Shown here: positions 13,509 through 23,263 of the stretch, piece after piece | Layout: each line of letters starts with the position of its first letter | Numbering within the stretch: position 1 is the first letter of the stretch | Virus record (IMG/VR): IMGVR_UViG_3300027804_000038 | Span: 32,001-96,000 of that record | Reading direction: 5' to 3' (one strand) | DNA from: a virus | Lineage: Duplodnaviria > Caudoviricetes | DNA: 64,000 nt | The notes under the pieces: generated by a model | What the model saw: the letters and a program-made list of their open reading frames with translations, nothing else | What the model was told of the DNA's origin: nothing | The model's database searches: none | Position numbers and translations under genes: made by a program

Positions 13509-13582
13509 GCGCCTTTAGCTCAGTCGGTTAGAGCAAATGACTCATAATCATTAGGTCGTAGGTTCGAGCCCTACATGGCGCA
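13509..13582 (+). tRNA. tRNA with CAU anticodon, probably Ile2 (lysidine-modified) rather than Met
   Basis: Cloverleaf: acceptor GCGCCTT/ATGGCGC, D GCTC/GAGC, anticodon stem AATGA-CTCATAA-TCATT, T GTAGG-TTCGAGC-CCTAC. C4:G69, C5:G68 and the GA-CTCATAA-TC context resemble E. coli Ile2. CCA is not encoded. Confidence 0.9.
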
Positions 13583-13587
13583 CAAAT

Positions 13588-13664
13588 GTCTCCGTAGCTC
13601 AGCTGGATAGAGCAACAACCTTCTAAGTTGTGGGTCACAGGTTCGAATCCTGTCGGGGATACCA
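13588..13664 (+). tRNA. tRNA-Arg (UCU)
   Basis: Cloverleaf with ACAAC-CTTCTAA-GTTGT anticodon arm, A20, T arm ACAGG-TTCGAAT-CCTGT, encoded CCA. Confidence 0.95.
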
Positions 13665-14744: not shown

Positions 14745-15362
14745 GTGGGAGAACAATTAATTATCACCATAATAACGTCAATAACTTCAATATTTGTGGC
14801 GTTAATAACTGCGGGAGTTTTCAGAAAAATAATGGATAAGAAAAAAGATGAAAACTCAAAGAAAAGACTAATAAAGCAAATTGAAAAAGATGAATTAATT
14901 CATTTTACATTAAGGGAAGTAAGAAGAAAATATAACGCAGATAGATTATATTTGATACAATTCCATAATGGTGGAAGTTTCTACACCAACTCACCAATGC
15001 AAAAAGCTTCGGTAACATATGAAAGATGTTCTGATGGGTTAGAAAGAGTATCTGAAAAACTACAAAATATTTTTGTTAGTCACTACACATGGTTCATTAA
15101 ACATTCAATAGACAAACAAATGTTTTATTTAAATTGTGAAGATATTGAAGATGTTACAACTAAGGCATTATTAAGAAAATTTGGGACCCAATCAACCGCT
15201 TCTTTACCAATATATGACAATAATAATCAACTAATTTCAATTATGGTATTAGATTGGGTTTTTAGTGAGATTGGGGAACATTATATTGATAATGATAATT
15301 TCAATCAACACTTTATTGAAGAATTTATATTAGATGTTGATTCAGTAAAAAATCTATTATAA
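14745..15362 (+). CDS. N-terminal TM plus GAF-like domain protein (T4 holin T-like architecture)
   Basis: GTG start; TM aa 4-26; ADRLYLIQFHNG...S.TYE...SLPIYD GAF-like pattern. Confidence 0.6.
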   Translation: MGEQLIITIITSITSIFVALITAGVFRKIMDKKKDENSKKRLIKQIEKDELIHFTLREVRRKYNADRLYLIQFHNGGSFYTNSPMQKASVTYERCSDGLERVSEKLQNIFVSHYTWFIKHSIDKQMFYLNCEDIEDVTTKALLRKFGTQSTASLPIYDNNNQLISIMVLDWVFSEIGEHYIDNDNFNQHFIEEFILDVDSVKNLL

Positions 15363-16115
15363 AAATCCGTTACTCATTCTTCCACTGTGTGATGAAATCC
15401 CATAAAGTTTTTCATTGGTCATAGATACTAGTATTGTTTCTCCCTCGCTAGCATTTTGAGCCCTTTCAGATGACACTCTATCGTCATCAGAACTTAATAA
15501 TATTGTTAAAGGGTCTTTTGTTATTTGATTAAGTAAACGACTACCAATTTCGTGGTCAACTTCTACAAGTTCAATTTGTTGGAATAGTTTATTATTAACA
15601 CTGGCGTATTCGTATATTGTTACTTCGTATGTATCATAATCTTCTATTTCTCCAGTTCCATCACATGTTTCACAATCAACTGTCCCTGTGCCGTCACACC
15701 ATTTACATGACAATGTACCGTCTCCATCACACTCACCACAAGAATCTCCATCTTCATCTTCACCAGTCCCATCACATGTGTTACAATCAGATTGACCGTT
15801 ATTACAATCGTGACAATCTTCACTTCCTTGTCCATAACAATCATCACATTCATCACTTGTAAAATTAGTATTTACCTCCATAGTTTTAAATGCGAATATA
15901 TTTGATTCTACAAATTTTAATGCGGATACAGGTTCTTTACCTAAATTAATTAGATAAGTTAAAAAACATAATTTAAGAGAATTAAAAGGTCCGAGTCCTT
16001 GAACCATTTGTTTACCAAAAGAATCATGGATTAAATAATTATATATGTCATCTGGAGTTTTTCCTCGAAATTTATTATCTGCGAATTTTTTTGATAAACT
16101 TATTATTTTTTCCAT
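15357..16115 (-). CDS. Protein with six DnaJ-type CxxCxGxG zinc-finger repeats and no J-domain
   Basis: CDDCYGQG, CHDCNNG, CNTCDGTG, CGECDGDG, CKWCDGTG, CETCDGTG; no HPD motif. Confidence 0.8.
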   Translation of the reverse strand: MEKIISLSKKFADNKFRGKTPDDIYNYLIHDSFGKQMVQGLGPFNSLKLCFLTYLINLGKEPVSALKFVESNIFAFKTMEVNTNFTSDECDDCYGQGSEDCHDCNNGQSDCNTCDGTGEDEDGDSCGECDGDGTLSCKWCDGTGTVDCETCDGTGEIEDYDTYEVTIYEYASVNNKLFQQIELVEVDHEIGSRLLNQITKDPLTILLSSDDDRVSSERAQNASEGETILVSMTNEKLYGISSHSGRMSNGFL

Positions 16116-16147: not shown

Positions 16148-17728
16148 ATGAATAATAAAAAAGTTTTAAACGAAATTAATAGAAATCGTAAAATCATGGG
16201 ATTAGATTTGATAGAATCGTCTAATGAGAATGCGAATTCATTTAGAAATCATTTAAGTGGTTTAGGATATAAATCAAAATCTAACATGGATGATGGGGGT
16301 GATTTAAATCCAAAATTCACTTCTTATATTAAATTAGTATCTTCCGAATTAAAAAAACAATTACCTGATTTAAAATTTATTTTTGGTGCAGGACATGACA
16401 AATGGCACAAAAAATTCGGTAAATCTAGACATAATGATGGCAGAGCAATTGATATTACAATATTAAAGAACGGAGATAAATATGTTTCAGAAAAAGATAA
16501 AGATATTCTTGACGCAGTATCAATGGTACTATGTAAAATGAGAAAAAATCTTATCGGATTTACTTTTATAGATGAATACAGATTCCCAAGTGCTGGCTCC
16601 ACTGGAGGACACTACCACCTTTCTTTTTCAGAGAATAATAAAGATGAACACACATCTACACCAAAATTTTGTGGGACTCTAAAATTAGATTCTAAATTTA
16701 AATTTGATTTTGGTAAAGATACTGATAAGACCGAAAGAAAAAAAGAAAAAGAAACGTCAGAACCAAGTGTAATAGACAAACTATTGGATACTTTTGGATT
16801 AAAAGAACTTTCAGATGTTGACACCGATAATCCCGACACTTTCATAAATAAAGTTAAAGATGTTTTTGGCGACGATAGTGTTGAGGATGATAATGGTGAT
16901 TTTACAATTTTGGGTATTGGGTTAGAAGATATGGTATCTGCGGCTAAAAAACTATTTGGAGAAAGTGTTAATAATAGAAAAATATTAACCGAGAAAGAGT
17001 CTAAAGTTTTAAATAAATTTAGCGGTGATATCCAAAACGGACCAAAATACCATGGGTCAAGACCTTTAGGAAATTGGCAATCAGATAATGCTTGGGATTT
17101 ATTTGCCCCTGCAAACACACAGTGGAATTCAATAACTAAAGGTAAAGTCACTAAAGTCTATAATACAGGTAAAAAGATAGGAAAGATATATGGTACACAA
17201 GTTTCTGTCCAAGGAATGGATGGGTTTCCTGATATATTTTATACTCACTTGAAAGATGTTACAGTAGAACCTGGAGACATTGTAGATATTGGAACACCAG
17301 TTGGTAAAGTGTCTGAATGGGGGTTGAGTAAATCAACTCATGTTCACGTAGGACTTCCATATGGCGAGCATATTCAAGACTTATTATCTTCAGACTATAA
17401 TAAACCTAAAGGTGGGTCAGGTTCATTTTTTGACTTTAGTAAAGATGAGGATGAAACTAAGACAACTAAAAAAGAGCCTGATTTAATTGATAAATTATTA
17501 GATACTTTTGGTATTAAATCAATTTCGGATATTGAAACTGAGAAAGATTCTGAAGATTTTGCAAACAAAGTCTCTACTGTTTTTGGGGATGACAAAGTTT
17601 CAAAGAAAGATGATAATAGTTTTGAAATATTTGGATATAGTTTAGACGAATTAATCGATAAAGCCAAATCTTTGTTTGAACAAAGATTAAATGAAGAAAT
17701 AAATAAAATGAAAAAACCCCTTAAATAA
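16148..17728 (+). CDS. Two-domain cell-wall peptidase: M15-like domain plus M23-like domain, each followed by a homologous ~68-aa module
   Basis: SRHNDGRAID...GGHYHLS (M15/LAS); NAWDLFAP...FYTHL...GDIV..GTPVG...HVHVG (M23); duplicated IDKLLDTFG...VFGDD modules. Confidence 0.8.
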   Translation: MNNKKVLNEINRNRKIMGLDLIESSNENANSFRNHLSGLGYKSKSNMDDGGDLNPKFTSYIKLVSSELKKQLPDLKFIFGAGHDKWHKKFGKSRHNDGRAIDITILKNGDKYVSEKDKDILDAVSMVLCKMRKNLIGFTFIDEYRFPSAGSTGGHYHLSFSENNKDEHTSTPKFCGTLKLDSKFKFDFGKDTDKTERKKEKETSEPSVIDKLLDTFGLKELSDVDTDNPDTFINKVKDVFGDDSVEDDNGDFTILGIGLEDMVSAAKKLFGESVNNRKILTEKESKVLNKFSGDIQNGPKYHGSRPLGNWQSDNAWDLFAPANTQWNSITKGKVTKVYNTGKKIGKIYGTQVSVQGMDGFPDIFYTHLKDVTVEPGDIVDIGTPVGKVSEWGLSKSTHVHVGLPYGEHIQDLLSSDYNKPKGGSGSFFDFSKDEDETKTTKKEPDLIDKLLDTFGIKSISDIETEKDSEDFANKVSTVFGDDKVSKKDDNSFEIFGYSLDELIDKAKSLFEQRLNEEINKMKKPLK

Positions 17729-17737
17729 GGGGTTTTT
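17712..17737. terminator. Bidirectional terminator between the peptidase gene and tmRNA
   Basis: aaaaacccctt-aaat-aaggggttttt. Confidence 0.85.
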
Positions 17738-17740
17738 AAT

Positions 17741-18133
17741 TGGTGGAGATGCTGGGGCTCGAACCCAGGTCCAAAAAAGTTTACCATAAAACACTACACG
17801 TTTAGGTCATTGTTTTTCTAAACAATCCGAAACTTCACAATTCCCTTATTTTATAGTGGTTCGGTTTACTGAGAACTAATCTTCCACTTGTTTCTTTTCG
17901 GGTAGAAACCACACCTTTGTAAAGACTTCTGTTGCAAGGTTATATGTCCACCGACCCCTTAGTAGGTTAATCCCAGATTAAGCTACAGATACTTCTTCAG
18001 TACGGATAAGACCGATAGTCTGAAGTTTGTTGATAACGTTGCCGTTTATAGTTCAAGCCAGTTATACAGGGTTAGCTTAGCCCCGACATGCGTTTTATGA
18101 CAAATCATCTCTGTCAAATCCAAAAACATCCCC
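17741..18133 (-). ncRNA. ssrA: tmRNA (393 nt)
   Basis: 5' GGGGATG pairs with 3' CATCTCC-ACCA with a G3:U alanyl determinant; GGATTTGACAG D-like motif; T arm CTGGG-TTCGAGC-CCCAG; pk1-like region followed by TAAAC-GGC resume context. Confidence 0.95.
17978..18043 (-). other. tmRNA tag reading frame GNVINKLQTIGLIRTEEVSVA* (21 codons)
   Basis: GGC resume codon after TATAAAC, open to TAA at 17980-17978; codons (AAC, ATC, CGT, GGT) match the highly expressed capsid gene set. Confidence 0.8.
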
Positions 18134-18160
18134 AAATATCAAAGAACTACGTTACAAAGA

Positions 18161-18168
18161 TATAAATA
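18161..18168 (-). promoter_or_regulatory. TATTTATA box upstream of tmRNA
   Basis: tataaata on the + strand, 27 nt upstream of the mature tmRNA 5' end; a second box (18187-18194, +) faces ORF 18209. Confidence 0.5.
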
Positions 18169-18208
18169 GTTTAATGATGTTACAAGTATTTATAAAAAAA
18201 ACTTTTTA

Positions 18209-19270
18209 ATGTCTTTATATAAAGCTCTTATAGAATTCCGTGATAATGAAACAAACCCTGTTTGGGTTAAAGAAGCAGATTACGATGGAATTATAACCAT
18301 AAAAAAAGTATCAAGTAAAAGTAGAGGAAAATCTTTGGTGATATTAAAATTTTCAGGTAATGAATACTTTGATTTATTTAGACCTGGAGATGACGGGTAT
18401 ACTAATAATGATTATTTGTTTAGTGTTGTATTTGATAGGTATTATAGATATGACTATGTTTTTATGGACTCATACAGTTCTGACGAAGAATTTAGATATG
18501 GTGGAATATATCATCTAAATGATGTTAATTTATCAATGTTAAAAGAATGTGTATTAATTATGAATCCTTCATTTGATAAAACAACACAAGACTTAGAATT
18601 TTGGGCTCTTGAATTTATTAAATTGTTTGAGTCTGAGTCCGACGAGATTGGTGCAGATTACATTAATGAGTATGACGAAGCATTGGTTACAGGTTTAAAA
18701 GAATATCTTTTGCAAAAAGTATGTGGAGTATTTGATACTTATGGTATTTTTGAAAGTAAATGTGGTTATGAATATTTTACAACAGTTAATGATATTATTA
18801 AAATTTGGGATGAATCTGGTGCTAACGAAAACGATAAGTTTCTTGATATGATTAAAAAATTTATTAAAAATAAAGATTTAGAAATTGATGATGATTTGTT
18901 TGAAGACTATCACTCATATTTTGATAGTAGAAATTTTGATTCGGATGCGTACAATAGAAATTCTGAAAGGATTTTAGACTCATTAAAAGATAGACTTTTG
19001 GAGGAAGATGAATTAGGGTTTATTGAAAAAAATAGAGAGATTTTAAGATTTTTAGATAAATTAGGAATTAAGGTAGATACGTTTCATAGTTTCCCAAAAG
19101 AAAAATCATTTGGTTCAAAATACGGTAAAATATTTAGGGTTAGAAAAATTGAAAACGGGTTACTTACCGTTCAAATAAAAAAACAAGGAGGGAATTATGA
19201 AACAGAACAATTTAAAATACCTCTTGATGAATTTAAAAAATTATTATATAATCCTGAATTATTTGACTAA
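18209..19270 (+). CDS. Acidic/aromatic hypothetical protein
   Basis: 353-aa ORF, no recognisable motif. Confidence 0.75.
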   Translation: MSLYKALIEFRDNETNPVWVKEADYDGIITIKKVSSKSRGKSLVILKFSGNEYFDLFRPGDDGYTNNDYLFSVVFDRYYRYDYVFMDSYSSDEEFRYGGIYHLNDVNLSMLKECVLIMNPSFDKTTQDLEFWALEFIKLFESESDEIGADYINEYDEALVTGLKEYLLQKVCGVFDTYGIFESKCGYEYFTTVNDIIKIWDESGANENDKFLDMIKKFIKNKDLEIDDDLFEDYHSYFDSRNFDSDAYNRNSERILDSLKDRLLEEDELGFIEKNREILRFLDKLGIKVDTFHSFPKEKSFGSKYGKIFRVRKIENGLLTVQIKKQGGNYETEQFKIPLDEFKKLLYNPELFD

Positions 19271-19277
19271 TTTTTAC

Positions 19278-19285
19278 TATATTTG
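19278..19285 (+). promoter_or_regulatory. Bacteroidota-type -7 promoter box TATATTTG
   Basis: TAnnTTTG match 17 nt upstream of the peptidase ATG. Confidence 0.5.
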
Positions 19286-19302
19286 TAGGATAATTAAAAA
19301 AA

Positions 19303-20115
19303 ATGAAAAATTTAGATTTCTTTAAAAGACTTTTATCGGTACCAACACACACTTATCAGGAAGATAAAATGATTGATTTCTTGTCTGAACATTTAAAAAA
19401 TCGTGGATACGACTTTTTTATTGATGACATGGGTTCAATTTATGTAACCAAAGGAGAATTATCTGAAGGCGAATATTACCCATGTGTTGTTTCACATACC
19501 GACACAGTACATAAATTAGACACAATTAATGTAATTGAAGAAATTCTACCAAATTCGAAGGGAGAAGATTCCTTATGTTTAAAGGCCTATAACGATTTTG
19601 ACGAACCAACTGGTATTGGTGGTGATGATAAAAATGGTGTATTCGCTTGTCTTGAAATATTGGATAAATTTGAAGTTATTAAAGCTGCCTTTTTTGTGTC
19701 TGAAGAAACTGGATGTCACGGCTCAAAAAATGCCAATGACGAATTTTTTGAAAATGTTGGTTACGTTATAGAGTTTGATGCCCCTTCTGATTACATGGTT
19801 ACTGAGTATTGTTACGGTGTGAAAATGTTTGAGAAAGAGTCTGAATTTTTTAAAACTGCTGACAAAATCCTAAATGAATGTATGTTGTCCGAACCAAAAT
19901 ATATGGTTCATCCTTATACAGATGTGTTCGCATTAAAGAAAAAATATGATTTCGCATGTATTAATTTTTCAATCGGATATCATAACTATCACACTAAAAA
20001 TGAATACGTTTGTATTGAAGAAGTTGAGGCAGGAATTAAAGCTGGTGAAAATCTAATCTCTTCCCTTGGCAAGGTTAAGCATATAATGAATCATCCTTCG
20101 ATGATTAACTTTTAA
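19303..20115 (+). CDS. Co-catalytic Zn aminopeptidase-like protein (M28/M42/M20 clan)
   Basis: SHTDTV, GGDDKNG, SEETG, EFDAP, GYHNYHT metal-ligand motifs. Confidence 0.85.
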   Translation: MKNLDFFKRLLSVPTHTYQEDKMIDFLSEHLKNRGYDFFIDDMGSIYVTKGELSEGEYYPCVVSHTDTVHKLDTINVIEEILPNSKGEDSLCLKAYNDFDEPTGIGGDDKNGVFACLEILDKFEVIKAAFFVSEETGCHGSKNANDEFFENVGYVIEFDAPSDYMVTEYCYGVKMFEKESEFFKTADKILNECMLSEPKYMVHPYTDVFALKKKYDFACINFSIGYHNYHTKNEYVCIEEVEAGIKAGENLISSLGKVKHIMNHPSMINF

Positions 20116-20120
20116 AAAAA

Positions 20121-20141
20121 AAGGGGGATTTATTCCCCCTT
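20121..20141. terminator. Bidirectional terminator between convergent peptidase and clpC
   Basis: aaggggga-tttat-tccccctt with A and T tracts on each side. Confidence 0.8.
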
Positions 20142-22175
20142 TTTCTTTCTTACCCTTGGTTTCTTTTCTGACGTTATTTCTTCATACAAAACAGATTCAC
20201 CATCTATTTTTATTAAATATTTTTTGTCAGTAACTATATTTGTTTTTAAAACTTCATCCGATATAAAATCTTCAATTTTTTCTTGTATTGCTCGTTTCAG
20301 AGGTCTGGCACCATAAACCTCATCAAAACCGACTTTAGAAATAAATTCAATAACACTCTCATCAAACTCTACAAAATATTTGATGAGTTCTAATCTAGAT
20401 TTAAGTTTATCAATCTCAACATTAACAATTTTCTTAACATCTTCATCTTTTAAAGTATTGAAAACAATAACTTCATCAATCCTGTTAATAAATTCAGGTG
20501 CAAAATAATTTTTAAGTTCTTTAGTTAACATTGATTTTTTAACTTCTTGGTCAGTGTAAACATTATTTGTTTTACCAAACCCAATACCTGCACCAAAATC
20601 TTGCATTTTCTTCACCCCAATATTTGATGTCATAATTATTAGACAGTTTTTAAAATTAATTTTTCTTCCAAAACTATCTGTCATATATCCTTCATCTAAG
20701 AGTTGTAAAAGAGATGAAAAAATATCTTTATGGGCCTTTTCAATTTCATCAAATAATACTACAGAATAAGGTTTAGTCTTAACCTGTTCGGTAAGTTGAC
20801 CTCCTTCTTCATAGCCGACATAACCTGGAGGTGAACCAATTAGTCTTGAAACTGAATGTTTCTCTTGAAACTCACTCATGTCAACTCTTATTAGATTCTC
20901 GTCACTTCCAAATATTTGTTTAGCAAGTTCTTTAGCCAATAAGGTCTTACCGACACCAGTCGACCCTAAAAATATAAACGAACCAATTGGTTTGTTAGGG
21001 TCTTTAATACCTAATCTATTTCTACGTATTGACTTTGCAATTATTGTGATTGCTTCGGATTGACCAATAACCGAATTAGTTAAAGTTTCTTCCAAGTTAA
21101 TCAACGCTCTTGAGTCGTCAACTGAAAGTTTTGTAATTGGTATTTTAGTCATATTTGATACAACTTCATAAACTAAATCAATTACAATTGACTGTCTTTT
21201 TGTTTTTAATTCCTCCTCAAATTTTTGTTTTTCAGATTCTAATTGGCTTAGAATCTTTTTTTCTCTGTCTCTTAGTTGTGCGGCCATTTCATAATTTTGT
21301 TTTTTCACAACCAAAAGTTTGTCTTCTCGTATTTTAGCCGACTCTCTTTTTAGTTCGTCGATAATCTCAGGATGTTTAACATCAACTTGAGCTCTCGCAC
21401 CTACTTCATCTAAAATATCAAATGCTTTATCAGGGAACTCTCTATCAGTAATGTATCTATCGGCCAATTCAACACATGTTGATAGGATTTCATCAGTATA
21501 CGTTACTTTATGATGATTTTCATATTTTTCTTTAACATTCTTTAGTATTTGTAGAGTTTCTTCTTTTGTTGAAGGTGAAACAATAACTTTTTGAAACCTT
21601 CTATCTAACGCCCCATCCTTTTCTATATTTTTTTTAAACTCATCTAAGGTAGTTGCTCCAATACATTGAATTTCTCCTCTTGATAGTGCGGGTTTCAATA
21701 TATTAGATGCGTCTAACGAACCCGAAGCGTTACCCGCCCCAACTAAAGTGTGAATTTCATCGATAAAAAGTATAACATCTGGACTATTCTGTATTTCTTC
21801 CAAGATAACCTTTAACCTTTCTTCAAATTGACCACGGTATTTTGTTCCTGCAACTATTGAGTTTAAATCTAAAGATAAAATTCTTTTGTCAACTAAACTT
21901 CTAGGACAATCCCCATCAAAAATTTTCATGGCCAAACCTTCAACTATTGCTGTCTTACCACAACCAGGTTCTCCTATTATAATTGGATTATTTTTTTTCC
22001 TTCTCGATAAAATTTGAGCAATTCTTAGAATTTCGGACTCTCTGCCAACTACAGGGTCTAACTTACCTTCCTCAGCGAGTTTAATTAAATCTCTAGAAAA
22101 ATTATCTAAAACAGGAGTTTTCGATTCCGTTGATTTTGGTCTTTCTTTTTTTCCTTCGTCCATTGAATCTGTCAT
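20130..22175 (-). CDS. clpC: ClpC-type AAA+ unfoldase lacking the N-terminal Clp-repeat domain
   Basis: Starts at LDNFSRDL...LDPVVGR; two Walker A/B sets (GEPGCGKT/LFIDE; GSTGVGKT/VLFDE); UVR coil QNYEMAAQLRD; ClpP-docking IGF loop (GIGFG). Confidence 0.92.
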   Translation of the reverse strand: MTDSMDEGKKERPKSTESKTPVLDNFSRDLIKLAEEGKLDPVVGRESEILRIAQILSRRKKNNPIIIGEPGCGKTAIVEGLAMKIFDGDCPRSLVDKRILSLDLNSIVAGTKYRGQFEERLKVILEEIQNSPDVILFIDEIHTLVGAGNASGSLDASNILKPALSRGEIQCIGATTLDEFKKNIEKDGALDRRFQKVIVSPSTKEETLQILKNVKEKYENHHKVTYTDEILSTCVELADRYITDREFPDKAFDILDEVGARAQVDVKHPEIIDELKRESAKIREDKLLVVKKQNYEMAAQLRDREKKILSQLESEKQKFEEELKTKRQSIVIDLVYEVVSNMTKIPITKLSVDDSRALINLEETLTNSVIGQSEAITIIAKSIRRNRLGIKDPNKPIGSFIFLGSTGVGKTLLAKELAKQIFGSDENLIRVDMSEFQEKHSVSRLIGSPPGYVGYEEGGQLTEQVKTKPYSVVLFDEIEKAHKDIFSSLLQLLDEGYMTDSFGRKINFKNCLIIMTSNIGVKKMQDFGAGIGFGKTNNVYTDQEVKKSMLTKELKNYFAPEFINRIDEVIVFNTLKDEDVKKIVNVEIDKLKSRLELIKYFVEFDESVIEFISKVGFDEVYGARPLKRAIQEKIEDFISDEVLKTNIVTDKKYLIKIDGESVLYEEITSEKKPRVRKKKGE

Positions 22176-22277: not shown

Positions 22278-22520
22278 ATGGCAATACTAAGTGAAACAAT
22301 TAACGGAACAAAAATTATTAACAAAATTGAGTCTTCAAATTTGGCTGAAACTGAATATGATACATCAACTAAAAAACTTGTAGTCGAGTTTAAAAATGGT
22401 CATAAATATGAATATGACGATGTACCTCATCAGTTGTACACTCAGTTTAGATTATCTGAATCTCATGGAAGTTTTTTTAATAAAAATATTGCAAAAACTT
22501 ACAAATATAAAAAGTTATAA
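22278..22520 (+). CDS. KTSC domain protein
   Basis: SSNL..EYD...L.VEFKNG..YEY.DVP..Y......S.GSFFN.NI...Y pattern. Confidence 0.9.
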   Translation: MAILSETINGTKIINKIESSNLAETEYDTSTKKLVVEFKNGHKYEYDDVPHQLYTQFRLSESHGSFFNKNIAKTYKYKKL

Positions 22521-22540: not shown

Positions 22541-23263
22541 GTGAGTGATAATAACATAATTAAAAGTTTTTTTTCTAAAGAATCTCTAAACTCTCAGATT
22601 TGGGATAAAGATGATTTGCTCAATCAAGAAGTTAGAGTTAAGCTTTTGGAAATTTCTAACGAATTTATTAATTTTTTATCAGTACCAATAGTTGTTGAAG
22701 ATATTATATTTACTGGTTCTTTAGCAAATTATAATTGGAGCGAATACTCGGATATTGATTTACATATTGTTGCTGATTTTTCTCAGTTTCCCGAAGATAT
22801 TTTAGAGTTATACCAAGAGTTATTTAAAGTAAAAAAAACAATTTTTAATACTGAACATAATATCAAAATATATGAGTATGAGGTTGAACTTTATGTTCAA
22901 AATGCATCAGAAGCTCATTTTAGTACAGGTGTTTATTCTGTTTTATATGATAAGTGGTTAGAAAAACCTAAAAAAGAAAAAAATAAATTAGACACTGAAA
23001 TACTAAAAGAAAAAATATCTCATTGGATGTCTATTATAGATACCGTTCTAAAAAATGCTGATGAATCTTCAATTGAAGAGTCTAAAGATTATATAAAAAA
23101 ATTAAAAGATAAGATTAAAAAGTATCGTTCATCTGGTCTAAAAGAAGGTGGTGAATACTCTTATGAAAATTTAGTTTTTAAATATTTGAGACGAAACGGA
23201 TACCTTGATAAGTTATTTAATTTTGAAAAAAAGATTGTCGATAAAGAACTATCTTTAAAGTAA
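22541..23263 (+). CDS. Pol-beta superfamily nucleotidyltransferase
   Basis: GTG start; TGSLANYNWSEYSDIDLHIV (GS-x-DxD) and VELYVQ third-carboxylate strand. Confidence 0.85.
   Translation: MSDNNIIKSFFSKESLNSQIWDKDDLLNQEVRVKLLEISNEFINFLSVPIVVEDIIFTGSLANYNWSEYSDIDLHIVADFSQFPEDILELYQELFKVKKTIFNTEHNIKIYEYEVELYVQNASEAHFSTGVYSVLYDKWLEKPKKEKNKLDTEILKEKISHWMSIIDTVLKNADESSIEESKDYIKKLKDKIKKYRSSGLKEGGEYSYENLVFKYLRRNGYLDKLFNFEKKIVDKELSLK

What the first reader, a model, noticed from the sequence alone, without database searches (positions are those of the whole stretch)
17741..22175. Candidate phage-encoded rescue-and-degrade module: tmRNA, aminopeptidase, N-domain-less ClpC
Seen within 4.4 kb: tmRNA, an M28/M42-like peptidase and a ClpC that begins at the first AAA+ domain but keeps the UVR coil and IGF loop. 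No clpP or smpB is in the window. Knowledge: the ClpC N-domain mediates adaptor and pArg-dependent recruitment, and N-domain deletion leaves pore-loop recognition of terminal degrons. Inference: phage ClpC docks on host ClpP, bypasses host adaptors and reads the phage-specific tag, with the peptidase recycling products. Together with bS21 this would be a late-infection translation quality-control takeover.
Basis: inference. Interest (0 to 1): 0.7.

Follow-up and report, generated by a model that had tools for sequence, protein, structure and literature searches.

The report
Phage tmRNA beside headless ClpC unfoldase
A 294-kb lake phage of Flavobacteria carries its own ribosome-rescue RNA, which writes an unusually long, phage-specific tag, next to a ClpC protein-unfolding motor that has lost its regulatory head and a small zinc peptidase; all three genes are real and always travel together in this lineage, but nothing yet shows that the motor reads the tag.

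Summary
The tmRNA (17741-18133, minus strand) scores 120.8 bits against Rfam. The ClpC (20130-22175, minus strand) aligns to S. aureus ClpC residues 150-813. It has no N-domain but keeps the M-domain, both ATPase rings and the ClpP-docking loop. The peptidase (19303-20115) is a lid-less M20-type enzyme. The complete 294-kb phage genome has no clpP and no smpB.

New here:
- Codon analysis shows that the 21-residue tag, unlike the host-type GENNYALAA, is conserved as a peptide.
- clpC, peptidase and tmRNA are adjacent in all 111 testable related contigs, but inside a larger collinear block.
- Sister clades keep a full-length ClpC far from the tmRNA. There the tmRNA usually sits directly behind a phage clpP in a DnaJ-metallopeptidase-ClpP-tmRNA block.
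- So the tmRNA has been linked to Clp genes in two different arrangements.
- The peptidase family also occurs in phages that show no ClpC or tmRNA next to it.
- An N-less ClpC also occurs in a huge phage with no tmRNA.

A phage-run tag-and-degrade route is the best model at about 40%. It is untested, and published data on S. aureus ΔN-ClpC allow an opposite role, in which ClpP is sequestered. The scan has noted this same gene trio before in related phage genomes.

The parts
17741..18133 (-). One-piece tmRNA gene (ssrA) with G3-U70 acceptor pair, T-arm and encoded CCA
   Evidence: ARAGORN. Rfam RF00023 at 120.8 bits over model positions 1-374. Sequence read directly. Homologues in 64 + 77 related viral contigs, with compensatory changes in the stems.
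17978..18043 (-). Tag reading frame: GGC resume codon, 21 codons (GNVINKLQTIGLIRTEEVSVA) and TAA
   Evidence: ARAGORN coding part 91-156. The Rfam alignment places GGC on the consensus resume codon. Among 30 distinct tag sequences, 44% of codon differences are synonymous in frame, against 20% and 5% in the other two frames. G1, N2, K6, G11, V-2 and A-1 are invariant. Leu12 uses CTT and TTA; Arg14 uses CGY and AGA.
18155..18162 (-). TATCTTTG motif (Bacteroidota-type -7 element TAnnTTTG) about 22 nt upstream of the mature tmRNA 5' end
   Evidence: The motif TTTATAT(C/A)TTTGTA and an upstream ATAAATACTTG are kept in almost all relatives while the sequence around them varies. Motif position. Reading it as a host sigma-A promoter rests on my own knowledge of Bacteroidota promoters.
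17712..17737 (.). G+C-rich hairpin with T runs on both sides: a bidirectional terminator for the tmRNA and the converging M23 peptidase gene
   Evidence: Terminator scan and sequence.
18209..19270 (+). Orphan protein of 353 aa, fast-evolving, transcribed divergently from the tmRNA
   Evidence: No Pfam, PHROG, NCBIfam or PDB sequence match. Only 29-40% identical between phages whose ClpC is 81-87% identical, and missing or replaced in a subset of relatives. The AlphaFold2 model is confident (pLDDT 86.6) but has no fold match (Foldseek best E 0.012; VIA best Z 5.2).
19303..20115 (+). Lid-less M20 (PepT-like) di-zinc peptidase of 270 aa with its own TATATTTG motif upstream
   Evidence: PF01546 at 25.1 bits (cut-off 24.6) and phrog_4191 at 1.5e-32. 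Alignment to PepT residues 28-185 and 300-399 skips the lid and shows the HxD, DDK, EE and YH metal motifs. Present between clpC and tmRNA in every testable relative. Motif at 19278.
20118..20144 (.). Bidirectional terminator hairpin between the converging peptidase and clpC genes
   Evidence: Terminator scan: 11 pairs with T runs on both strands.
20130..22175 (-). ClpC-type class I Hsp100 unfoldase without N-domain (681 aa): two AAA+ modules, short M-domain and ClpP-docking loop
   Evidence: Pfam AAA, AAA_lid_9, AAA_2 and ClpB_D2-small. phrog_4871 at 7e-234, covering profile positions 161-748 only. Aligns to S. aureus and B. subtilis ClpC from residue about 150. Walker A/B motifs and both pore loops are intact.
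21171..21368 (-). M-domain (coiled coil with UVR motif); the conserved aromatic residue at its tip is Tyr295
   Evidence: UVR hit at 21252-21335, 21.2 bits. The tip motif Q-x-[YF]-E-x-A-A-x-L-R-D is invariant in phage and host sequences. It corresponds to F436 of S. aureus ClpC (PMC12583610).
20577..20597 (-). ClpP-docking loop FGAGIGF (residues 527-533)
   Evidence: F-G-x-G-[VIL]-G-F is kept in all 57 distinct phage sequences and in Bacteroidota ClpC.
15357..16115 (-). Neighbouring gene: a 252-aa protein with six CxxCxGxG DnaJ-type zinc-finger repeats and no J-domain (possible proteostasis partner; membership in the cluster uncertain)
   Evidence: Weak PF00684 hit. Repeats read in the sequence. 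Follows the tmRNA on the same strand in many relatives.

Best explanation
The locus is a clade-fixed neighbourhood of proteostasis genes in a T4-like jumbo phage of freshwater Flavobacteriales.

Shown here:
- The tmRNA has everything a working tmRNA needs.
- It encodes a 21-22-residue tag that is conserved as a peptide and is unlike the host-type GENNYALAA.
- The ClpC has intact motors and a ClpP-docking loop but no N-domain.
- The phage has no SmpB and no ClpP.

Inferred working model:
- The host polymerase transcribes the tmRNA from a Bacteroidota-type promoter.
- The tmRNA is charged with alanine and is delivered by host SmpB and EF-Tu to ribosomes stalled on broken mRNAs.
- It frees the ribosome and appends the phage-specific C-terminal tag ending in Val-Ala.
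- The tag acts as a degron whose most probable reader is a Clp protease made of the phage N-less ClpC stacked on host ClpP. Relatives that still carry a phage clpP would use that one.
- Without the N-domain the pore is open to C-terminal tags and independent of N-domain adaptors.
- The released peptides may be trimmed by the neighbouring lid-less M20 peptidase, but that link is weak.
For: 1. The tmRNA is real and complete.
2. The tag is under purifying selection as a peptide. In 30 distinct sequences the differences fall mostly on third codon positions (3306, against 2089 at first and 721 at second positions). The synonymous share is 44% in frame, against 20% and 5% out of frame. Two-step synonymous Leu and Arg switches occur.
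3. Five Bacteroidota genomes with the nearest cellular ClpC have 9-residue tags ending in A-[LM]-A-A, such as GENNYALAA.
4. The ClpC active-site motifs, pore loops, M-domain and ClpP loop are kept in 57 distinct sequences, including those from genomes without clpP.
5. clpC to tmRNA: 64 of 64 testable contigs. tmRNA to clpC: 47 of 47. clpC identity goes down to 60%.
6. In more distant jumbo phages with full-length ClpC, the tmRNA lies 64-591 bp behind a phage clpP in a DnaJ-metallopeptidase-ClpP-tmRNA block. This holds in 5 genomes with three tag types. So the tmRNA is tied to Clp genes in a second, different arrangement.
7. All 5 ClpC-bearing relatives that are at least 90% complete carry a tmRNA.
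8. Published biochemistry: S. aureus ΔN-ClpC binds ClpP without an adaptor. ΔN-ClpC-F436A degrades GFP-ssrA, whereas ClpC-F436A with its N-domain does not (PMC12583610). ΔNTD-ClpC1 unfolds an ssrA-tagged protein as well as full-length ClpC1 does (PMC6274998).
9. Weak hint of expression: in a lake metatranscriptome, contigs identical to the tmRNA have word depth 28-53, against 3-4.5 for identical contigs of the flanking genes.
Against: No result here shows recognition of the tag by ClpC. The four genes lie on both strands in separate transcription units. The adjacency sits inside a block that is collinear across all close relatives, so it could be inherited order only. In the sister clade, which shares the upstream synteny and has a full-length ClpC, the tmRNA is more than 30 kb away and the peptidase about 82 kb away. 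A homologous long tag ending VA or VAA occurs with full-length ClpC, so the truncation is not needed for that tag family. LR745206 has an N-less ClpC but no tmRNA above threshold. The pore loops do not differ from host ClpC. The M-domain aromatic residue that keeps S. aureus ΔN-ClpC inactive in head-to-head rings is retained. The peptidase family occurs in Cellulophaga and Bacillus phages with no ClpC or tmRNA in the neighbourhoods looked at. The genomes used for the co-occurrence count were chosen through their ClpC, so the tmRNA frequency in ClpC-less relatives is unknown.
Confidence: 0.4

Rival explanations
1. The linkage reflects descent only. The phage tag is read by host machinery (ClpXP, Lon, FtsH or Tsp) or by another phage factor. 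The N-less ClpC has a separate job, such as adaptor-independent bulk proteolysis of host or misfolded proteins on host ClpP, or work alongside the phage's own DnaK and DnaJ.
For: The whole block from 31711 down to clpC is collinear in relatives. The genes are separate transcription units. Sister clades scatter the three genes. An N-less ClpC exists without a tmRNA in LR745206. The genome also encodes DnaK and a full DnaJ elsewhere. The pore loops equal the host's.
Against: A tag meant for host proteases would be expected to resemble the host tag, yet it is twice as long, ends differently and is strongly conserved. The tmRNA is next to a Clp gene in two independent arrangements.
Confidence: 0.33
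2. The N-less ClpC is a ClpP trap rather than a protease motor. Like S. aureus ΔN-ClpC with an intact M-domain, it would bind host ClpP constitutively, pair head-to-head through its M-domains and form proteolytically silent assemblies. That would shield phage proteins, including tagged ones, from Clp degradation.
For: S. aureus ΔN-ClpC binds ClpP, forms ΔN-ClpC/ClpP rods and shows no proteolytic activity unless the M-domain aromatic F436 is mutated (PMC12583610). The phage protein keeps that aromatic residue (Tyr295) and the ClpP loop in all 57 sequences. No UVR mini-protein that could open the M-domain contact is found in this genome.
Against: Both Walker B motifs and both pore loops are conserved, which a passive trap would not need. 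Some close relatives keep a phage clpP (G026), which fits use of ClpP rather than blockade. Bacteroidota ClpC regulation has not been studied, so transfer from S. aureus is uncertain.
Confidence: 0.14
3. The tag is not a degron. The phage tmRNA would serve mainly to recycle ribosomes, for example after host nucleases cut mRNAs. Its long tag would be kept for another reason, such as escaping host ClpXP, binding a phage factor, or constraints from the RNA structure.
For: The tag ends in V-A, not the canonical L-A-A. The third residue from the end is variable (S, T, A, V, E), whereas ClpX needs Leu there, by my knowledge of E. coli ClpX.
Against: Third-position and two-step synonymous changes show selection on the peptide, not only on the RNA. 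The tag keeps a small hydrophobic C-terminus, as all known degradation tags do. The tmRNA is linked to clpP or clpC in most genomes examined.
Confidence: 0.13

Closest known systems
Bacterial trans-translation with Clp degradation of ssrA-tagged proteins (tmRNA-SmpB, then ClpXP or ClpAP with SspB; ClpC1-ClpP1P2 in mycobacteria)
   Same: A one-piece tmRNA with an alanine-accepting tRNA-like domain and a short reading frame ending in small hydrophobic residues. A class I Hsp100 unfoldase with a ClpP-docking loop.
   Different: The tmRNA and the unfoldase are viral, while SmpB and (in this genome) ClpP must come from the host. The tag is 21-22 residues and ends V-A, against 9 residues ending A-L-A-A in the host group. 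The unfoldase has no N-domain.
Phage-encoded tmRNAs: mycobacteriophage Bxz1 group and Bacillus phage G (PMC4131195), huge phages (Al-Shayeb et al. 2020, PMC7162821), two-piece tmRNA of OM43 phage Melnitz (PMC9004378)
   Same: A lytic large phage carrying a complete ssrA gene among many translation genes (25 tRNAs, bS21). The Melnitz paper already floats the idea that a phage could tag proteins for degradation.
   Different: The passages I read in those papers (term look-ups, not the full text) report neither a lineage-specific tag conserved as a peptide nor a fixed linkage to a phage clpC or clpP. No DNA match to this tmRNA exists in 50,697 GenBank phage records.
Engineered S. aureus ΔN-ClpC (Jenne et al. 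2025, PMC12583610) and M. tuberculosis ΔNTD-ClpC1 (PMC6274998)
   Same: The same architecture as the natural phage protein: it starts in the linker before AAA1 and keeps the M-domain and ClpP loop. The laboratory versions bind ClpP without an adaptor and can process ssrA-tagged substrates.
   Different: Those are laboratory constructs from Gram-positive bacteria. S. aureus ΔN-ClpC is inactive unless the M-domain contact is also broken. The phage protein is a natural variant fixed in a clade, derived from Bacteroidota-type ClpC at 54-58% identity.
PHROG families phrog_4871 (ATP-dependent protease) and phrog_4191 (peptidase)
   Same: Both proteins fall into existing phage protein families.
   Different: The phrog_4871 profile includes the N-domain, and the match starts at position 161. 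phrog_4191 members are usually about 340-370 aa, while this one is a 270-aa core. Neither family has a tested function that I know of.

Membership tests
tmRNA (Rfam RF00023, one-piece) | tRNA-like domain: acceptor stem with G3-U70, T-arm, 3' CCA | tested here: met
   The 5' GGGGAUG pairs with CAUCUCC and gives G3-U. T-arm is GGGUUCGAGCCCC. CCA is encoded. Stems covary among relatives.
tmRNA (Rfam RF00023, one-piece) | Score above the curated gathering threshold over the full model | tested here: met
   120.8 bits against a gathering score of 47, covering model positions 1-374. The pseudoknot region aligns with low posterior probability.
tmRNA (Rfam RF00023, one-piece) | Internal reading frame with resume codon, stop codon and hydrophobic C-terminus | tested here: met
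   GGC resume codon on the consensus position, 21 codons, TAA, ends V-A. The frame is conserved as a peptide.
tmRNA (Rfam RF00023, one-piece) | Works with SmpB | not testable with these tools
   No SmpB is found in the phage genome, so host SmpB would be needed. Binding was not tested.
ClpC (class I Hsp100 with short M-domain) | Two AAA+ modules with Walker A/B motifs and pore-loop tyrosines | tested here: met
   GEPGCGKT and FIDEIH, KYRG; GSTGVGKT and LFDEIEKA, GYVGY.
ClpC (class I Hsp100 with short M-domain) | Short coiled-coil M-domain with UVR motif, not the long ClpB type | tested here: met
   Aligns without a gap to the ClpC M-domain. UVR scores 21.2 bits. The tip motif is conserved.
ClpC (class I Hsp100 with short M-domain) | ClpP-docking [LIV]-G-F loop in AAA2 | tested here: met
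   FGAGIGF at residues 527-533; invariant [VIL]GF in 57 sequences.
ClpC (class I Hsp100 with short M-domain) | N-terminal Clp_N repeat domain (adaptor and pArg site) | tested here: not met
   The alignment starts at ClpC residue 150, and the frame is closed upstream. Cellular and sister-clade homologues have the domain. No NCBIfam equivalog cut-off is reached.
Peptidase family M20 (clan MH) | Di-zinc ligand set (H-x-D, D, E-E, D/E, H) | tested here: inconclusive
   SHTD, GGDDK, SEET and NYH align to PepT ligands. The fifth ligand is not securely aligned. The Pfam score is just above cut-off.
Peptidase family M20 (clan MH) | Lid or dimerisation domain inserted in the catalytic domain | tested here: not met
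   The alignment jumps from PepT residue about 185 to 300, and the protein has only 270 aa.
ssrA-type tag-and-degrade pathway | The tag is recognised by the unfoldase and the tagged protein is degraded | not testable with these tools
   Only genomic association and published analogies are available.

The most novel reading that the evidence does not exclude
A virus-private, orthogonal degron system. The phage tmRNA writes a tag that host ClpXP reads poorly and that only the N-less phage ClpC on ClpP reads well. The phage can then clear ribosomes stalled by host RNA-cutting defences and recycle the truncated products through its own channel, outside host adaptor control.
Probability: 0.15. Interest if true: 0.85.

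Novelty: new variant of a known kind. Interest (0 to 1): 0.6.

Why it matters
Phage tmRNAs have been listed in genome surveys, but I know of no functional study of one. Here an abundant lineage of lake phages keeps a tmRNA whose tag is clearly selected as a peptide and differs from the host's. It also keeps that tmRNA next to Clp protease parts in two different gene orders. If the tag is a private degron, this would be the first viral tag-and-degrade system. It would also be a natural example of an N-less ClpC, which in the laboratory is either a deregulated protease motor or a ClpP trap. Either outcome would show how large phages take over host protein quality control. It would also supply an orthogonal tag-protease pair for Bacteroidota genetics.

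Tried and rejected
- Nucleotide searches of the locus and of the tmRNA against GenBank phages found nothing.
- ARAGORN alone missed most related tmRNAs, finding 13 of 80. I replaced it with an nhmmer profile.
- The orphan gene 18209-19270 gave no result in Pfam, PHROG, NCBIfam, PDB sequence search, the ESM Atlas, Foldseek against PDB, or VIA-align wide. I found no sign that it is an SmpB, ClpP or adaptor relative.
- I considered that the change from a VAA ending to a VA ending of the tag tracked the loss of the ClpC N-domain, on the basis of one sister genome. I rejected this because other full-length-ClpC phages also have tags ending VVA or AVA.
- I looked for a UVR mini-protein that could act on the M-domain, as earlier notes describe in related genomes. 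This genome has none.
- The sigma-70 promoter scan was uninformative: 34 hits against 26 expected. TAnnTTTG is not enriched in the window as a whole, so single occurrences count only where they are conserved.
- The huge phage LR756501 turned out to carry a ClpB/ClpV-like protein without M-domain or ClpP loop, so it is not a comparable case.
- Coverage gaps in the metatranscriptome contigs were not interpreted.
- Complex prediction was not used. The tag is shorter than the 30-residue minimum and a ClpC hexamer exceeds the size limit.


Full report
WHAT IS THERE

The window is bases 32001-96000 of a 293,850-bp IMG/VR virus record. CheckV rates it 100% complete. GC content is about 29%. The genome has 25 tRNA genes and one tmRNA gene. 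Its terminase is T4-like. The nearest cultured relative is Flavobacterium phage immuto, at only 26% identity.

In the finding's interval I confirm four genes.

1. The tmRNA lies at 17741-18133 on the minus strand. ARAGORN finds it, and Rfam scores it 120.8 bits over the full model. Reading the sequence shows a G3-U70 acceptor pair, a normal T-arm, an encoded CCA and a terminator hairpin. The Rfam alignment places a GGC codon on the consensus resume codon. The frame then runs for 21 codons, GNVINKLQTIGLIRTEEVSVA, to a TAA stop.

2. An orphan gene lies at 18209-19270 on the plus strand.

3. A 270-aa peptidase lies at 19303-20115 on the plus strand. It aligns to the two halves of the PepT catalytic domain and skips the lid domain.

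4. A 681-aa ClpC lies at 20130-22175 on the minus strand. It aligns to S. aureus ClpC residues 150-813. Both ATPase modules, both pore loops, the short M-domain and the FGAGIGF ClpP loop are intact.

The genes converge and diverge, with hairpin terminators between them. They therefore form at least three transcription units, not an operon. No ClpP and no SmpB exist anywhere in the genome by profile search. A tblastn with a phage ClpP also finds nothing. bS21 is real but lies 12 kb away.

HOST AND ORIGIN

The closest cellular ClpC sequences, at 54-58% identity, are all from Bacteroidota, mostly Flavobacteriales. They are about 850 aa long and have the N-domain. Five such genomes have tmRNA tags of nine residues: GENNYALAA, DNTSYALAA or GESNYAMAA. 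The phage tag shares only the Gly start. An upstream motif of the Bacteroidota -7 type (TAnnTTTG, here TATCTTTG) is conserved in front of the tmRNA in nearly all relatives. From my knowledge of Bacteroidota promoters, this suggests transcription by the host housekeeping polymerase rather than a late programme. Near-identical DNA occurs in freshwater, estuary and aquaculture metagenomes from 12 studies.

THE TAG IS SELECTED AS A PEPTIDE

I collected the tmRNAs of the relatives with an nhmmer profile. They gave 30 distinct tag coding sequences.

- Differences concentrate at third codon positions: 3306, against 2089 at first and 721 at second positions.
- 44% of codon differences are synonymous in the tag frame, against 20% and 5% in the other two frames.
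- Leu12 switches between CTT and TTA, and Arg14 between CGY and AGA.
- G1, N2, K6, G11 and the terminal V-A never change.
- Meanwhile the RNA stems change by compensatory substitutions.

So the tag is translated and something recognises its sequence.

LINKAGE IN THE CLOSE CLADE

Starting from ClpC, 388 viral contigs encode a relative. Of the 80 best (70-87% identity), 64 carry the tmRNA 1-5 kb downstream on the same strand. The other 16 end less than 2.1 kb after clpC.

Starting from the tag, a degenerate pattern scan gave 77 genuine tmRNAs. Forty-seven of them have clpC upstream. None with at least 5.5 kb of upstream sequence lacks it. The peptidase is always between the two genes. The orphan gene is often missing or replaced, and it evolves fast.

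All the ClpC genes in this clade are N-less, with a closed frame upstream. However, the whole stretch from the terminase to clpC is collinear in these phages. Adjacency alone therefore cannot separate shared function from shared descent.

WHAT MORE DISTANT RELATIVES SHOW

A sister clade shares the upstream synteny, and its ClpC is 57-59% identical. That ClpC is a full-length 827-aa protein with the N-domain, with no peptidase or tmRNA beside it. In its 226-kb genome the tmRNA, the peptidase homologue and a phage clpP all exist but are scattered. Its tag, GDVFANATVGHFVTEGATVAA, is homologous to the window's.

I then examined fifteen larger contigs with full-length ClpC. All five that are at least 90% complete carry a tmRNA. 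Seven of eight examined also carry a phage clpP. In five genomes with three different long tags, the tmRNA lies 64-591 bp behind clpP. It sits inside a conserved block of DnaJ, a small metallopeptidase, a short ORF, ClpP and then the tmRNA.

Within the N-less clade, one member (G026) still has a clpP. Three complete genomes, including this one, do not. Yet the ClpP loop stays invariant. That argues that docking on ClpP is still used, and in this genome it would have to be host ClpP.

The tmRNA has therefore been tied to Clp protease genes in two different gene orders. This is better evidence for a functional link than one conserved synteny. It remains circumstantial, and I chose these genomes through their ClpC.

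POINTS AGAINST A DEDICATED MODULE

- The huge phage LR745206 has an N-less ClpC and no tmRNA above threshold. LR756508 has both, but 360 kb apart.
- Long tags ending VVA or AVA occur together with full-length ClpC. The truncation is therefore not what makes the tag readable.
- The pore loops do not differ from the host's.
- The peptidase family is found in Cellulophaga phage phi38:1, Bacillus phage FADO and others. No Clp gene or tmRNA lies in the neighbourhoods I looked at.

WHAT THE LITERATURE ADDS

Phage tmRNAs are known but uncharacterised (PMC4131195, PMC7162821, PMC9004378). Removing the N-domain of S. aureus ClpC lets it bind ClpP without an adaptor. Combined with an M-domain mutation, it also degrades GFP-ssrA, which the N-domain otherwise blocks. 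But ΔN-ClpC with an intact M-domain forms head-to-head rings and ΔN-ClpC/ClpP rods with no proteolysis (PMC12583610). ΔNTD-ClpC1 unfolds an ssrA-tagged protein normally (PMC6274998).

The phage protein keeps the critical aromatic residue, Tyr295. I found no UVR mini-protein in this genome that could open the M-domain contact. Two opposite roles are therefore open: an adaptor-free protease motor, or a ClpP trap.

EXPRESSION

In one lake metatranscriptome, contigs identical to the tmRNA have word depth 28-53. Identical contigs from the orphan gene, the peptidase and clpC have depth 3-4.5. This fits a stable, abundant RNA. But contig depths are crude and DNA carry-over cannot be excluded.

VERDICT

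| Claim | My estimate |
|---|---|
| The tmRNA is functional with a phage-specific tag | about 0.9 |
| The ClpC works on ClpP | about 0.65 |
| This ClpC is the main reader of the tag | about 0.4 |
| The peptidase belongs to the same pathway | about 0.2 |

The scan has already noted the same trio in several related phage genomes. Those notes gave me two leads, which I checked here: clpP in relatives, and the ΔN-ClpC paper. I found no publication describing the conserved long tag or its linkage to clpC or clpP. I rate it a new variant of a known kind.

Noticed in passing
L184:10001-12451 and L190:10001-12451 (IMG/VR contigs 3300042691_036017 and 3300027816_000052): In these two relatives clpC is split at the Walker A motif. 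The first ORF ends GEPG followed by a 24-residue piece starting CVLGDTYIEV and a stop codon. The next ORF starts 6 nt later and ends ...SSHN directly before CGKT. This looks like an atypically split intein with a very short N-part, in the P-loop of a phage ClpC. It is identical in two separate metagenomes.
   Followed up: partly
L415:5659-8646, L416:5951-8913, L417:5899-7536, L418:3101-6991 (genomes G022, G019, G025, G013): Distant jumbo phages with full-length ClpC carry a conserved block: full DnaJ, a PF18894 phage metallopeptidase, a short ORF, ClpP and then the tmRNA. G013 has two tmRNAs and two clpP genes.
   Followed up: partly
window 15357-16115 (-): A 252-aa protein with six CxxCxGxG DnaJ-type zinc-finger repeats but no J-domain. 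In many relatives it lies just after the tmRNA. The genome also has a full DnaJ (G000 199171-200058) and a DnaK (G000 228880-230661).
   Followed up: partly
window 18209-19270 (+): An orphan protein with a confident AlphaFold2 model (pLDDT 86.6, pTM 0.75) and no fold match in PDB. It evolves much faster than its neighbours: 29-40% identity where ClpC is 81-87% identical.
   Followed up: yes
G026:C1:167371-167898 versus G000 about 240.2 kb: A close relative (ClpC 81% identical) has a clpP gene between genes whose homologues are adjacent in this genome near its tRNA cluster. So clpP was recently lost here or gained there.
   Followed up: partly
window 16148-17728 (+): A 526-aa protein with an M23 peptidase domain converges on the tmRNA terminator. 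It is variably present in relatives.
   Followed up: no
window 22278-22520 (+) and 22541-23263 (+): A KTSC-domain protein and a nucleotidyltransferase (phrog_36119) are transcribed divergently from clpC. Both are conserved next to clpC even in the sister clade with full-length ClpC.
   Followed up: no
window 13509-13664 (+): tRNA-Met(CAT) and tRNA-Arg(TCT) lie 4 nt apart, away from the main tRNA cluster of the genome.
   Followed up: no
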